This document shows positions 56,090 through 57,343 of a stretch of 64,000 nucleotides of DNA, piece after piece. Position 1 is the stretch's first letter; every line of letters begins with the position of its first letter. Source of the DNA: a virus (taxonomy: Duplodnaviria; Heunggongvirae; Uroviricota; Caudoviricetes); IMG/VR virus record IMGVR_UViG_3300021979_000001, positions 2,948 to 66,947 of that record; one strand, written 5' to 3'. The notes beneath the pieces are model-generated. The model did not search any database, was not told where the DNA came from, and worked only from the letters and a program-made list of their open reading frames with translations. The position numbers and the translations under genes are program-made.

Positions 56090-56875
56090 GTGAACCGTCC
56101 AACCAAGACATTTATGGCTTTTATGATGGTGGCAACACTGTCCGCGTGTGCCGATGTCAATAAAGTTGATCGGGGAGATTTTGGTTCTTTTGAACGTTCG
56201 CTGAACCATAAAAGTTATGGTTATCAATTGATTGATGATCCGACTGGTTCAGCACCAACTGCACAAGTAGAGCGGTTTGAAGTTCGCGATGGTGATTGTG
56301 CGAATGATTTCACGTGGAGTGATTGCGCAACCCATCGCGAACGGTCCGAGGTTAAACAACCGCCGAAAATGCGGCGGTTATCCGAAGGAACACACCAGTG
56401 GTATAGCTGGTATATATACGTCCCGAAAGGGACACCTTCGATCAATCCGGGAAATAACTGCATGGCGCAGTTTCACAACTCGGGTTCAAATGAAACAGCG
56501 TTTATGTTTCAACATGGTTTAGGTGGGTATTACTTCGACAACCATTTATTCCGCGATGCCAACTATGTTGTTTTGGTCCCAAAAGGTCAATTCGATGGAA
56601 AATGGCATCATATTGAAGTCGAAGTTTTTTGGTCGCGAAACGGCCAGAAAGGTTTTGTTAATGTGTGGGCCAATGGCGACCAAAAAGTCGCGTGGAAGGG
56701 GGTAACCCTTCGGGCTGGGGATGCATACTTTAAGTATGGTATTTATCGGTCGCACCTTGATCGCTTTGACAAGGTGTATCCCGGTAAAAAACATCCAACA
56801 CAAATTGCCATGTATGCCGGGGTGCGTGCCGGTGAAACGCGGGCTGATGTTCAAATACCCGCTTCCAACTTCTGA
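56090..56875 (+). CDS. Lipoprotein with polysaccharide-lyase-like (ConA-like jelly-roll) domain
   Basis: AAGGA SD and GTG start. Lipobox in MAFMMVATLSAC. RERSEV, WYSWYIYVP, GKWHHIEVEVFWS and YFKYGIYRS. GC content is above the flanks. Confidence 0.5.
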   Translation: MNRPTKTFMAFMMVATLSACADVNKVDRGDFGSFERSLNHKSYGYQLIDDPTGSAPTAQVERFEVRDGDCANDFTWSDCATHRERSEVKQPPKMRRLSEGTHQWYSWYIYVPKGTPSINPGNNCMAQFHNSGSNETAFMFQHGLGGYYFDNHLFRDANYVVLVPKGQFDGKWHHIEVEVFWSRNGQKGFVNVWANGDQKVAWKGVTLRAGDAYFKYGIYRSHLDRFDKVYPGKKHPTQIAMYAGVRAGETRADVQIPASNF

Positions 56876-56887
56876 AAGGACGTTCTT

Positions 56888-57343
56888 ATGAACGAAGATT
56901 CCAACAACATTATTACCGTAACAAACAACATCGTGACCGCCTACCTTGCGAACAACAGCATCGACTACGCTGACCTGCCTGACTTTATCATCAACGTGTC
57001 AAACGCGGTCCGGGGCGTTGAAGAAAGCGCGTCGGTCTCTGGCAACATTACCATCAACGACACCCCGGCCCCGGCCCCAACTGAAAAGCCGAAACCTGCG
57101 GTTTCAATCAAGAAATCCATTGGCGACGATTTCATCATCTGTCTGGAAGACGGGAAGAAATTGAAAATGCTGAAACGCCACCTTCGGACCACCTACAACA
57201 TGACCCCGGACGAATACCGGGCCAAATGGGGCCTGCCCGCAGATTACCCGATGGTTTGCCCGAACTACGCCCAACAGCGCTCCGAACTGGCCCGCCAAAA
57301 TGGCCTTGGTCGCAAAGCTGGCTCCAAAAAGGCGGACGCCTAA
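56888..57343 (+). CDS. mucR: Ros/MucR family transcriptional regulator (variant metal site)
   Basis: [58 protein letters not shown]. Confidence 0.8.
   Translation: [151 protein letters not shown]

What the first reader, a model, noticed from the sequence alone, without database searches (positions are those of the whole stretch)
56090..57343. GC-rich two-gene island: a polysaccharide-lyase-like lipoprotein plus a Ros/MucR regulator lacking two canonical zinc ligands
Seen: both genes are visibly more GC-rich than the phage backbone. The MucR homolog reads [44 protein letters not shown]. Canonical Ros, as I recall it, reads CLECG...LKRHL..HH. Here the second Cys is Asp and the distal His is Tyr. 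Established: zinc-independent Ros/MucR homologs with such substitutions exist in rhizobia, and the family is typical of Alphaproteobacteria. Inference: the pair is a host-derived module that may reprogramme host exopolysaccharide or surface gene expression, and it gives a clue to the host clade.
Basis: partly seen in the sequence, partly recalled or inferred. Interest (0 to 1): 0.5.

Follow-up and report, generated by a model that had tools for sequence, protein, structure and literature searches.

The report
Phage-borne MucR silencer plus polysaccharide lyase
A very large marine phage carries two bacterial-type genes side by side, an ordinary full-length MucR DNA-binding regulator and an exported sugar-chain-cutting enzyme; the "missing zinc ligands" are the normal state of this MucR subfamily, so the finding is real but mostly ordinary.

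Summary
Both ORFs exist exactly as described: a 261-aa PF14099 polysaccharide lyase with a lipoprotein signal (56090-56875) and a 151-aa Ros/MucR protein (56888-57343). Against Ros the ligand positions read C-D-H-(T)-Y instead of C-C-H-(H)-H. This is not a peculiarity. All 120 nearest homologs have C-D at the first two positions, 119 keep the His, and all end in Tyr or Phe. The literature calls Cys-to-Asp the majority state and shows it binds zinc. S. meliloti MucR2, with Cys-Asp-His and Lys-Tyr in place of the two His, was shown by NMR to bind zinc. So "zinc-independent" is not supported.

Only mucR is a true compositional outlier (GC3 0.70, rank 1 of 55 genes); the lyase's GC3 is backbone-like. 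In 80 bacterial genomes the lyase never has a mucR within 10 kb, so the pair was not imported as a module.

Nearest named relatives of both genes are Rhodospirillales (Thalassospira), which supports an alphaproteobacterial donor or host.

Best reading: a mobile-element-borne copy of the alphaproteobacterial H-NS-like silencer MucR. Its DNA-binding domain is host-like and its oligomerisation domain is intact but unusually divergent. It is co-expressed with a PL20-like exported lyase that acts on envelope polysaccharide. New member of known kinds; modest interest.

The parts
55916..56089 (.). AT-rich (30% GC) divergent intergenic region upstream of the lyase. It is the presumed promoter region of the two-gene unit, with an AAGGA ribosome-binding site at 56078-56082.
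   Evidence: No strong sigma-70 consensus was found, so the promoter is inferred, not shown.
56090..56875 (+). PF14099, PL20-like beta-jelly-roll polysaccharide lyase, 261 aa. Candidate catalytic residues: R83/R85/E87 (RERSE), Q127, H129 (QFH), Y219/R220 (YGIYR).
   Evidence: Pfam E 1e-21. AF2 model pLDDT 92.5. Foldseek best hit 2ZZJ glucuronan lyase, E 6e-12, TM 0.62-0.65, then PL7, PL13 and GH131. Family profile against PDB: 2ZZJ at E 2.3e-13, with Q91 aligned to Q127 and Y200 to Y219. These residues are invariant or nearly invariant in 51 homologs.
56090..56149 (+). Lipoprotein signal peptide MNRPTKTFMAFMMVATLSAC, with lipobox LSAC and lipidated Cys20 at 56147-56149.
   Evidence: Sequence pattern. 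The Cys column is conserved across homologs. A lipobox-like motif is present in 78 of 115 homologs. No dedicated predictor was available.
56876..56887 (+). 12-nt spacer carrying the mucR ribosome-binding site. The same GAAAGGAC motif sits before the lyase. The short gap implies co-transcription.
   Evidence: co-transcription is inference.
56888..57343 (+). Full-length Ros/MucR family protein, 151 aa.
   Evidence: Pfam E 2.5e-46. 2JSP E 2.4e-29. GC3 0.695, rank 1 of 55 genes.
56888..57034 (+). MucR N-terminal oligomerisation domain (aa 1-49), a two-helix hairpin. The key hydrophobic residues V16, Y19, L20 and L30, F33, I34 are kept.
   Evidence: AF2 helices 3-22 and 27-49, pLDDT about 95. Residues were mapped by motif onto B. 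abortus V22/Y25/V26 and L36/L39/I40 (PMC6250670; PMC11662661). Identity to homologs is a median of only 30%, against a family median of 45%.
57104..57316 (+). MucR DNA-binding (prokaryotic zinc-finger) domain, aa 73-143. Ligand positions: C85 (57140-57142), D88 (57149-57151), H98 (57179-57181), T102/Y103 (57191-57196).
   Evidence: DBD identity to homologs is a median of 79%, against a family median of 80%.
57484..57511 (+). GC-rich hairpin (11 bp, 9 G-C pairs) followed by a T run, 141 nt downstream of the mucR stop and inside the 3' end of the convergent amidoligase gene. It is a possible terminator of the lyase-mucR unit.
   Evidence: Consensus scan only; function not shown.

Best explanation
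The locus is a two-gene accessory unit, a 'moron', on the + strand between minus-strand genes in the replication and nucleotide-metabolism region of a very large AT-rich phage. Identical proteins sit on a 457-kb contig.

Gene 2 is a complete MucR. MucR is the alphaproteobacterial H-NS-like xenogeneic silencer. It oligomerises through a two-helix N-terminal domain and binds AT-rich DNA with a zinc-finger domain. The phage copy was captured from a GC-richer alphaproteobacterium, with Rhodospirillales as the nearest known relatives. Its Cys-Asp-His(+Tyr) site is the normal one for its subfamily and most likely still holds zinc. Its DNA-binding domain is as conserved as any bacterial MucR. Its oligomerisation domain keeps the critical hydrophobic residues but is unusually divergent.

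Inferred mechanism: once expressed in the infected cell it binds the same AT-rich targets as the host MucR. Those targets include the host MucR regulon (surface polysaccharide, motility, cell-cycle genes, horizontally acquired islands) and the phage's own 39%-GC DNA. It either adds to or displaces host MucR filaments. This is what plasmid- and phage-borne H-NS and Lsr2 homologs are known or proposed to do.

Gene 1 is a catalytically intact PL20-like beta-jelly-roll lyase with a lipoprotein signal. It is exported to the host envelope, where it most likely cleaves a uronic-acid-containing capsule or exopolysaccharide. That would serve progeny release, avoidance of re-adsorption, or superinfection control.

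The two genes were acquired separately and became a co-transcribed pair inside the phage.

Shown: gene identities, motifs, folds, composition and distribution. Inferred: zinc binding, DNA targets, export, substrate and the benefit to the phage.
For: Identity.

The ligand pattern is the subfamily norm. Of 120 nearest homologs, 83 read CDHTY and all 120 read C-D at the first two positions with Y or F at the last. The same holds in 26 IMG/VR viral copies.

Zinc binding by the same pattern:
- Asp at ligand 2 is the majority state and coordinates zinc (PMC12948726; PMC5745721; PMC9779718).
- The Cys-Asp-His + Lys-Tyr domain of MucR2 binds zinc by NMR, with Tyr proposed as the fourth ligand (PMC13297338).
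- A pSymA-type S. meliloti paralog reads CLEDGKKFKSLKRHLTTKY.

Oligomerisation residues are retained and a two-helix NTD is predicted with confidence.

MucR is an AT-rich-DNA bridger and xenogeneic silencer (PMC9410896). MucRs from different alphaproteobacteria cross-complement and control capsule and phage sensitivity (PMC4241560).

Precedent for MGE-borne silencer homologs:
- Phage H-NS and Lsr2/CgpS (PMC7074111).
- 517 plasmids, 6 phage isolates and 27 IMG/VR contigs carry MucR.
- One of those contigs is a second huge one, 543 kb, whose mucR is also a GC outlier (GC3 0.80 against a locus GC of 0.47).

Foreign origin of mucR: GC3 0.695, z 4.2, equal in both halves of the gene.

Separate origins of the two genes.

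Lyase: nested in a bacterial clade beside a homolog that lies in a prophage-like element. Catalytic-motif residues are invariant. Lipobox. No tail-fibre-type domain, and it is not among structural genes.
Against: Nothing functional was measured.

The fourth-ligand neighbour is Thr, not the Lys that the MucR2 study considered important for shielding the metal. Zinc binding is therefore extrapolated.

The nearest MucR homolog is only 59% identical, so no donor is identified. The host is unknown, and the gap between the phage's 39% GC and Thalassospira's 54-56% GC is large.

S. meliloti MucR2 and MucR3, which share the same ligand pattern, bind DNA but do NOT bridge it (PMC13297338). A divergent NTD could therefore mean a non-silencing DNA binder.

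The lyase substrate is unknown. Bacterial homologs are stand-alone genes with no polysaccharide-related neighbours. The fold also occurs in GH131 glucanases.

Co-transcription and the promoter are not demonstrated.

The genes could be neutral passengers.
Confidence: 0.55

Rival explanations
1. The phage MucR is a counter-silencer or decoy. Its host-like DNA-binding domain occupies AT-rich phage DNA. Its divergent N-terminal domain cannot build, or actively poisons, host MucR bridging filaments. This protects the 39%-GC phage genome from xenogeneic silencing.
For: NTD identity to homologs is a median of 30%, below the family's 5th percentile of 32.5%, while the DBD is at 79%, the family norm. 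MucR2 and MucR3, with the same ligand pattern and altered NTDs, bind DNA without bridging it (PMC13297338). A second huge viral contig carries a MucR with a conserved DBD and a still more divergent N-terminus. Host MucR prefers AT-rich foreign DNA (PMC9410896).
Against: All six hydrophobic residues shown to be needed for oligomerisation are conserved or conservatively replaced (L39 to F). The NTD is predicted as a confident helical hairpin. Known anti-silencers of this kind are usually truncated, and this protein is full length. NTDs are in general the less conserved half of the family.
Confidence: 0.2
2. The phage MucR is a regulator of the phage itself. It would silence phage genes for lysogeny, pseudolysogeny or temporal control, as the prophage Lsr2-like CgpS does, and would have little effect on the host.
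For: The phage's own DNA is the most abundant AT-rich target in the infected cell. CgpS is a precedent (PMC7074111). Most IMG/VR MucR-bearing contigs have 58-67% GC and look like alphaproteobacterial prophages.
Against: No integrase, repressor or other lysogeny marker lies near the locus in this window. mucR looks like a late, un-ameliorated addition (GC3 0.70) rather than a core regulator. No close relatives of this phage exist to show conservation.
Confidence: 0.15
3. Both genes are neutral passengers with no role in infection: recent random captures of host DNA.
For: mucR is compositionally un-ameliorated. The pair lies in a strand-switch islet typical of morons.
Against: Both ORFs are intact, with good ribosome-binding sites and tight packing, including a 4-nt stop overlap with the neighbouring gene. 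All conserved and catalytic residues are retained. The locus is identical on contigs from several samples. Acquisition of MucR and of PF14099 lyases by other viral contigs, huge ones included, is recurrent.
Confidence: 0.1

Closest known systems
S. meliloti MucR2/MucR3 (SMa1705, SMa0748), replicon-borne Ros/MucR paralogs with a Cys-Asp-His + Lys/Tyr site (PMC13297338)
   Same: The first three ligand positions are the same (C, D, H). There is no His at the fourth position and Tyr stands in its place. They are carried on an accessory replicon. The DBD is highly similar; the pSymA-type copy read here is CLEDGKKFKSLKRHLTTKY.
   Different: The phage has Thr, not Lys, before the Tyr. It keeps Ile34 (invariant in alignment A3) in the oligomerisation helix; whether that is the position of the Val/Ile-to-Thr change that weakens MucR2/3 oligomerisation was not mapped. 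It has no N-terminal extension. It is encoded by a phage rather than a megaplasmid.
Chromosomal MucR of Rhodospirillales (Thalassospira, Magnetospirillum), the [19 protein letters not shown] subfamily
   Same: The ligand motif is identical and the DBD nearly so (up to 86% identity). The length and two-domain layout are the same.
   Different: Overall identity is only 53-59% and NTD identity about 30%. The gene sits in a 39%-GC phage genome. None of these bacterial proteins has been studied experimentally, as far as I found.
Phage- and plasmid-borne homologs of xenogeneic silencers: H-NS of phage EPV1, Sfh and Pmr on plasmids, Lsr2-like CgpS of prophage CGP3 (PMC7074111)
   Same: A mobile element carries a full-length copy of its host lineage's AT-rich-DNA silencer, and the copy is close to the host's own protein.
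   Different: The protein family is unrelated (zinc finger, not H-NS or Lsr2). No functional study of any phage MucR was found. Phage MucRs are only annotated, for example Erythrobacter phage vB_EliS-R6L and Mesorhizobium phage Cp1R7A-A1.
PL20 endo-beta-1,4-glucuronan lyase of Trichoderma reesei (PDB 2ZZJ), and more broadly the PL7/PL13/PL20 beta-jelly-roll lyases
   Same: Same Pfam family PF14099 and same fold. The profile match is E 2.3e-13. The Gln (QF) and Tyr (G-x-Y) positions align with residues invariant in the phage protein's family.
   Different: Identity is about 16%. The phage protein is a bacterial lipoprotein form. The RERSE motif replaces RYHSE. The substrate is unknown. The assignment of Q91 and Y200 as catalytic in 2ZZJ is from my memory, not checked here.
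Virion-borne phage depolymerases (tail-spike lyases and hydrolases)
   Same: A phage-encoded enzyme expected to cut host surface polysaccharide.
   Different: This protein is small and has a lipoprotein export signal. It has no tail-attachment domain and no beta-helix, and it is not in a structural gene block. It would act from inside the infected cell's envelope rather than from the virion. tblastn found no homolog in 50,697 deposited phage genomes.

Membership tests
Ros/MucR (PF05443) | Profile match above the curated threshold over the whole family model | tested here: met
   157.1 bits against a cutoff of 25.4, model positions 2-123 of 123.
Ros/MucR (PF05443) | C-terminal prokaryotic zinc-finger DNA-binding domain homologous to Ros87 | tested here: met
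   phmmer against 2JSP, E 2.4e-29 over 80 residues. The AF2 secondary structure matches the published layout. Foldseek with the full-length model did not recover 2JSP, which I treat as uninformative.
Ros/MucR (PF05443) | Canonical Ros Cys2His2 ligand set (C79, C82, H92, H97) | tested here: not met
   The positions read C85, D88, H98, Y103. The literature does not require this set for family membership: Asp at ligand 2 is the majority state.
Ros/MucR, Cys-Asp-His zinc-binding subgroup | Cys, Asp and His at ligand positions 1-3 | tested here: met
   C85, D88 and H98. C85 and D88 are invariant and H98 nearly invariant in 49-51 homologs. 119 of 120 nearest homologs read C-D-H.
Ros/MucR, Cys-Asp-His zinc-binding subgroup | Actual zinc content and zinc-dependent folding | not testable with these tools
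   Extrapolated from Ml1-3, B. abortus MucR and S. meliloti MucR2.
Ros/MucR, zinc-free subgroup (Ml4/Ml5 type) | Loss of the metal site, including the first Cys, with a compensating hydrogen-bond network and hydrophobic core | tested here: not met
   The first Cys and the His are retained. The literature notes that the first Cys can be replaced by Ser in the M. loti proteins and describes the Ml4/Ml5 compensations. I could not see the Ml4 or Ml5 sequences themselves.
MucR as H-NS-like xenogeneic silencer | N-terminal two-helix oligomerisation domain with the hydrophobic residues L36/L39/I40 and V22/Y25/V26 (B. abortus numbering) | tested here: met
   L30/F33/I34 and V16/Y19/L20, placed by motif alignment. 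AF2 helices 3-22 and 27-49, pLDDT about 95. The B. abortus sequence itself was not available here; the mapping rests on the conserved IVxAYxxNN and LPxLI motifs.
MucR as H-NS-like xenogeneic silencer | Higher-order oligomers, binding to AT-rich DNA, DNA bridging, transcriptional silencing | not testable with these tools
MucR2 and MucR3 show that family members can lack bridging.
Polysaccharide lyase PF14099 (PL20/PL13-type beta-jelly roll) | Profile match above the curated threshold | tested here: met
   78.2 bits against a cutoff of 29.9.
Polysaccharide lyase PF14099 (PL20/PL13-type beta-jelly roll) | Beta-jelly-roll fold shared with solved lyases | tested here: met
   AF2 pLDDT 92.5, pTM 0.89. 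2ZZJ E 6e-12, TM 0.62-0.65; PL7, PL13 and GH131 follow.
Polysaccharide lyase PF14099 (PL20/PL13-type beta-jelly roll) | Conserved cleft residues (Arg, Gln, His, Tyr) | tested here: met
   R83/R85/E87, Q127, H129 and Y219/R220 are invariant or at least 90% conserved in 51 homologs. Q and Y align to 2ZZJ Q91 and Y200.
Polysaccharide lyase PF14099 (PL20/PL13-type beta-jelly roll) | Beta-elimination activity and substrate; formal CAZy family | not testable with these tools
   No assay and no CAZy classifier were available.
Bacterial lipoprotein | Signal peptide ending in a lipobox [LVI][ASTVI][GAS]C | tested here: met
   The signal peptide ends ...VATLSAC20. The Cys is conserved in most homologs. 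This is a pattern match only; no LipoP or SignalP was run.
Horizontally acquired genomic island | Deviant composition | tested here: inconclusive
   Met for mucR (GC3 z 4.2). Not met for the lyase at synonymous sites (z 0.9).
Horizontally acquired genomic island | Absence from sister genomes; flanking repeats, integrase or tRNA | tested here: not met
   No close relatives of the phage exist in a database of 5.8 billion proteins or in IMG/VR, so absence could not be tested. There are no tRNAs in the window, no convincing flanking repeats and no integrase nearby.
Co-transferred lyase-mucR module | The same two genes adjacent in bacterial or other viral genomes | tested here: not met
   No mucR within 10 kb in any of 80 bacterial lyase loci. 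Not adjacent in a Thalassospira-like contig carrying the Thalassospira lyase P0160. No viral locus carries both.

The most novel reading that the evidence does not exclude
Huge AT-rich phages of alphaproteobacteria repeatedly capture the host's MucR silencer. They keep its DNA-binding domain but let the oligomerisation domain diverge. The result is a phage-controlled version of the silencer, which either shields the phage's own AT-rich genome from host MucR filaments or tightens silencing of AT-rich host defence islands and surface-polysaccharide genes. Here it is coupled to an exported lyase that strips the existing polysaccharide. This would be the first functional case of a virus exploiting the zinc-finger class of xenogeneic silencers.
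Probability: 0.25. Interest if true: 0.55.

Novelty: new member of a known kind. Interest (0 to 1): 0.3.

Why it matters
MucR has only recently been recognised as the alphaproteobacterial counterpart of H-NS. A 2022 review notes that its role in phage biology is unexplored (PMC9779718). A complete, host-like MucR on a phage of about 457 kb, and an independent one on a 543-kb viral contig, suggest that large AT-rich phages must deal with this silencer. They also give concrete proteins to test.

The locus offers a host-lineage clue (Alphaproteobacteria, possibly Rhodospirillales) for an otherwise orphan megaphage.

The zinc-ligand point has no special significance. It simply places the protein in the common Cys-Asp-His(-Tyr) subgroup.

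The lyase adds an example of a non-virion, exported polysaccharide lyase in a phage. No homolog was found in deposited phage genomes, although distant ones occur in IMG/VR contigs.

Tried and rejected
- Megablast of 54-60 kb against 50,697 phage genomes: no match.
- NCBIfam and PHROGs: no hit for either protein.
- tblastn of the lyase against phage genomes: none.
- Search for sister phages through the flanking amidoligase: none in IMG/VR. Only hits of 33% identity or less were found among 5.8 billion proteins. The 'island absent in relatives' test was therefore impossible.
- Foldseek of the full-length MucR model against PDB: nothing significant, and 2JSP was not recovered. I ascribe this to the flexible two-domain model and rely on the sequence match instead.
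- Conserved gene neighbourhood of the lyase in 64 bacterial loci: none.
- mucR near the lyase in bacteria: none.
- Flanking direct or inverted repeats: only chance-level matches. tRNAs: none. Sigma-70 promoter upstream of the lyase: none above background.
- Sample accessions in the literature: not found.
- Idea that the viral lyase homologs belong to the Gly-rich peptide and radical-SAM system of this phage: no Gly-rich small genes in those viral loci, so dropped.
- Idea that the GC-rich tail beyond 57343 is imported DNA: weakened. That stretch lies within amidoligase residues 291-417, which match a phage protein family, and it encodes Ala/Gly-rich sequence.
- Virion depolymerase reading of the lyase: rejected on the signal peptide, small size and genomic position.
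- Assembly chimera: rejected.
- Mapping Caulobacter MucR1 Y97C onto Tyr103: not possible without that sequence, so not used.
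Full report
**1. What is in the sequence**

Two co-oriented ORFs occupy 56090-56875 (261 aa, GTG start) and 56888-57343 (151 aa), separated by 12 nt.
- Each ORF is preceded by the same GAAAGGAC ribosome-binding motif.
- The gene upstream (55730-55915) and the gene downstream (amidoligase, 57340-58641) are on the other strand. The amidoligase stop overlaps the mucR stop by 4 nt.
- Pfam assigns the first ORF to PF14099 Polysacc_lyase (E 1e-21) and the second to PF05443 ROS_MUCR (E 2.5e-46, full model length).
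- Identical proteins with identical neighbours occur on at least four other contigs from different samples and assemblers. The protein database records a longest contig of 457,165 bp for them. This is a real locus of a very large element, not an assembly chimera.
- Context genes fit a huge phage that has no close relative in the phage collection: class I ribonucleotide reductase with a split intein, DnaB, primase, an Acb1-like protein, YqeY and an amidoligase with PHROG matches.

**2. Composition**

The window is 39.0% GC, the lyase 46.8% and mucR 53.7%. The 1254-nt segment is the GC maximum of the window (z about 4).

Gene by gene, the picture is uneven (55 non-overlapping ORFs).

| Gene | GC3 | Rank of 55 | z |
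|---|---|---|---|
| mucR | 0.695 | 1 | 4.2 |
| lyase | 0.437 | 10 | 0.9 |

- In mucR the high GC3 is equal in both halves of the gene.
- In the lyase the surplus GC lies in codon positions 1 and 2, so it reflects amino-acid content.
- 'GC-rich' is therefore true for both genes, but only mucR looks like un-ameliorated foreign DNA.
- The GC-rich tract continues to about 57,530 in the 3' end of the amidoligase gene. There it contains a strong hairpin with a T run on the + strand (57484-57511), a possible terminator.
- No flanking repeats, tRNA or integrase mark the borders.

**3. The MucR protein and the 'missing ligands'**

Alignment to the solved Ros domain (2JSP, E 2.4e-29) gives [19 protein letters not shown] over CLECGGSFKSLKRHLTTHH. 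Cys85 and His98 are kept, the second Cys is Asp88, and the two distal His are Thr102 and Tyr103. It is also the norm.
- Among the 120 best homologs out of 8000, the five positions read CDHTY in 83, CDH-x-Y in a further 35, CDHKF in 1 and CDYRY in 1. None has the Ros pattern.
- These homologs include chromosomal MucRs of Thalassospira, Magnetospirillum and Paramagnetospirillum.
- In IMG/VR, 26 of the 27 viral MucR copies could be read at these positions, and all 26 have C-D there.

The literature agrees.
- Ml1-3 and B. abortus MucR are zinc proteins of this type. The zinc-free Ml4 and Ml5 rely on other changes (PMC9779718; PMC5693944).
- S. meliloti MucR2 and MucR3 have Cys-Asp-His with Lys/Tyr instead of the two His. 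For MucR2, NMR of the coordinating His showed that the domain binds zinc. Tyr was proposed as the fourth ligand, and the Lys-Tyr double mutant unfolds (PMC13297338).
- A pSymA-type copy that I read reads CLEDGKKFKSLKRHLTTKY.

The phage protein differs only by Thr in place of that Lys. The inference of zinc independence is therefore not supported. The best-supported expectation is a zinc-binding domain.

**4. The rest of MucR**

The protein is full length.
- The AF2 model shows two N-terminal helices (3-22 and 27-49, pLDDT about 95), a floppy linker, then the DNA-binding domain. This is the published MucR layout (PMC11662661).
- The residues needed for oligomerisation in B. abortus MucR (L36, L39, I40, plus V22, Y25, V26) map by motif to L30, F33, I34 and V16, Y19, L20.
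- Identity to 115 homologs is a median of 79% in the DNA-binding domain (family median 80%). In the N-terminal domain it is only 30% (family median 45%, 5th percentile 32.5%).
- So DNA recognition should be that of a host MucR, while the self-association surface has drifted unusually far.

**5. What MucR is now known to be**

MucR is a DNA-bridging xenogeneic silencer that is functionally interchangeable with H-NS and prefers AT-rich foreign DNA (PMC9410896). It oligomerises into rings through the N-terminal domain.
- In Caulobacter it controls capsulation via hvyA, and the capsule blocks phage phiCr30. MucRs from other alphaproteobacteria partly complement the mutant (PMC4241560).
- Mobile elements often carry copies of their host's silencer: H-NS on phage EPV1 and on plasmids, Lsr2-like proteins on actinophages and on prophage CGP3 (PMC7074111).
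- MucR follows this pattern. Homologs occur on 517 PLSDB plasmids, in 6 of 50,697 phage records, whose named hosts are all alphaproteobacteria, and on 27 IMG/VR contigs.
- One of those contigs is 543 kb with 47% GC. Its mucR is again a GC outlier (GC3 0.80), with the same CDH-TY motif and a still more divergent N-terminus.
- Phage MucRs have been annotated and noted as signs of lateral transfer (PMC5463345; PMC7710501), but I found no functional study.

**6. The lyase**

- The AF2 model is confident (pLDDT 92.5) and is a beta-jelly roll.
- The best solved match is the PL20 endo-beta-1,4-glucuronan lyase 2ZZJ (E 6e-12). PL7 alginate lyases, PL13 heparinase I and GH131 follow.
- A profile of 51 homologs finds 2ZZJ at E 2.3e-13. 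It aligns its Q91 and Y200 with Q127 and Y219 of the phage protein.
- R83/R85/E87 (RERSE), Q127, H129 (QFH) and Y219/R220 (YGIYR) are invariant or nearly so in the family. These resemble the Arg/Gln/His/Tyr set of PL7-type lyases; that comparison is from my own knowledge.
- The N-terminus is a lipoprotein signal (lipobox LSAC), and the Cys is conserved in most homologs.
- Homologs are stand-alone lipoprotein genes in many marine Proteobacteria: Thalassospira, Terasakiella, SAR116, SAR11, Marinomonas, Vibrio, Campylobacterales and Bdellovibrio. They have no conserved neighbours.
- In a neighbour-joining tree without support values, the phage protein sits inside the bacterial clade. Its sister is a 52%-identical protein that occurs as a tandem pair in a prophage-like element.
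- More distant homologs (37% identity or less) occur on IMG/VR contigs, including ones of 342 and 359 kb.
- The small size, the export signal, the lack of a tail-attachment domain and the position among replication genes argue against a virion depolymerase.

**7. Are the two genes a module?**

No evidence supports import as a module.
- No mucR lies within 10 kb of the lyase in 80 bacterial genomes, nor on a Thalassospira-like contig carrying the Thalassospira lyase P0160.
- No viral locus has both genes.
- The two genes differ in synonymous-site composition. The closest lyase contig is about 49% GC, whereas the mucR signature suggests a donor of about 55-60% GC.

They were most likely acquired separately and became a probably co-transcribed pair inside the phage.

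**8. Host clue**

Every named MucR relative is alphaproteobacterial. The best named hits for both proteins are in Thalassospira alkalitolerans (58% for MucR, 47-48% for the lyase). The refutation criterion 'nearest homologs lie outside Alphaproteobacteria' is not met for MucR. At under 60% identity no donor is identified, and the lyase family is taxonomically broad.

**9. Verdict**

The locus is a phage-borne, probably zinc-binding, full-length MucR silencer homolog next to an exported PL20-like lyase. The highlighted ligand substitutions are ordinary for the subfamily. What remains mildly interesting is that huge AT-rich phages repeatedly capture the alphaproteobacterial silencer with a conserved DNA-binding domain and a divergent oligomerisation domain. 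This is testable but not shown here.

Noticed in passing
window 48-16238, minus strand: An array of 41 tandem small genes (66-105 aa). Each encodes a conserved leader-like N-terminus (for example MNTSIELYYCVNSHLTNDDF or MVTIYNLYYSIPLITNDETY) followed by long (Gly-X)n repeats rich in D, Y, H, S and N. There is no ORF of 150 aa or more in 1-17.5 kb, and stop-codon read-through does not rescue any. GC skew is extreme, -0.25 to -0.61. Gene units of about 300 nt repeat with upstream sequence. Radical-SAM genes lie at 21579-22667 and 50881-51966. The array could be a giant multi-precursor peptide system.
   Followed up: partly
window 21579-26123 and 50881-51966; L116, L125, L131, L136-L139: On other viral contigs (18-359 kb, two of them above 340 kb), the PF14099 lyase homolog lies within a few kb of homologs of two sets of window genes. 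One set is the window's radical-SAM paralogs. The other is a three-paralog family of unknown function (23609-24349, 24568-25470, 25467-26123), together with 22936-23637. In this window those genes sit 30 kb away from the lyase.
   Followed up: partly
L092 7881-8378 (IMGVR_UViG_3300024239_000011, 543,035 bp): A second huge viral contig (locus GC 0.47) carries a 165-aa MucR. It has the same [19 protein letters not shown] motif, GC3 of 0.80 and an N-terminus that barely aligns to the family. No other gene in the 16-kb locus is shared with this window.
   Followed up: partly
L091, L098, L100-L102, L105, L108, L110, L112 (IMG/VR); P0103: A subgroup of MucR homologs has Tyr instead of the third ligand His (LKRY instead of LKRH). 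It makes up 9 of 26 viral copies, mostly on contigs of 58-66% GC. These proteins lack three of the four Ros ligands.
   Followed up: no
P0002-P0005 (230-250 aa, metagenomic): The best-scoring non-identical MucR hits are proteins with two tandem zinc-finger DNA-binding domains (CDH-x-Y/F twice) after a single N-terminal domain.
   Followed up: no
window 43934-45673 and 45818-47092: The large subunit of ribonucleotide reductase is split over two ORFs. Intein N- and C-terminal halves sit at the break, which makes this a candidate split intein.
   Followed up: no
window 57344-57530: The last 62 or so codons of the convergent amidoligase gene are GC-rich (0.49-0.56, against 0.31-0.34 for the rest of the gene). 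They contain an 11-bp GC-rich hairpin with a T run on the opposite strand.
   Followed up: partly
window 26277-26879, minus strand: This gene has the second-highest GC3 in the window (0.57, z 2.6) and no Pfam match. It may be another acquired gene.
   Followed up: no
window 57257-57259 (MucR Cys124): The phage MucR has Cys in PMVCPNY, where at least 90% of homologs have Ala. Only 2 of the other 119 top homologs share it. Significance is unknown.
   Followed up: no
window 19896-20882, 27743-28828, 31290-32687: Other accessory genes in the window: a glucosaminidase-domain protein, a K+ channel with an RCK domain, and an SPFH/Band 7 protein. An Acb1-family gene lies just upstream of the RNR small subunit.
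   Followed up: no
L002 1286-2899 and L003 7179-8792: The closest lyase homolog (52% identity) occurs as a tandem pair of PF14099 genes. The pair lies in a region with a CI-like repressor, a NotI-type restriction-modification system and a resolvase, which is prophage- or island-like.
   Followed up: no
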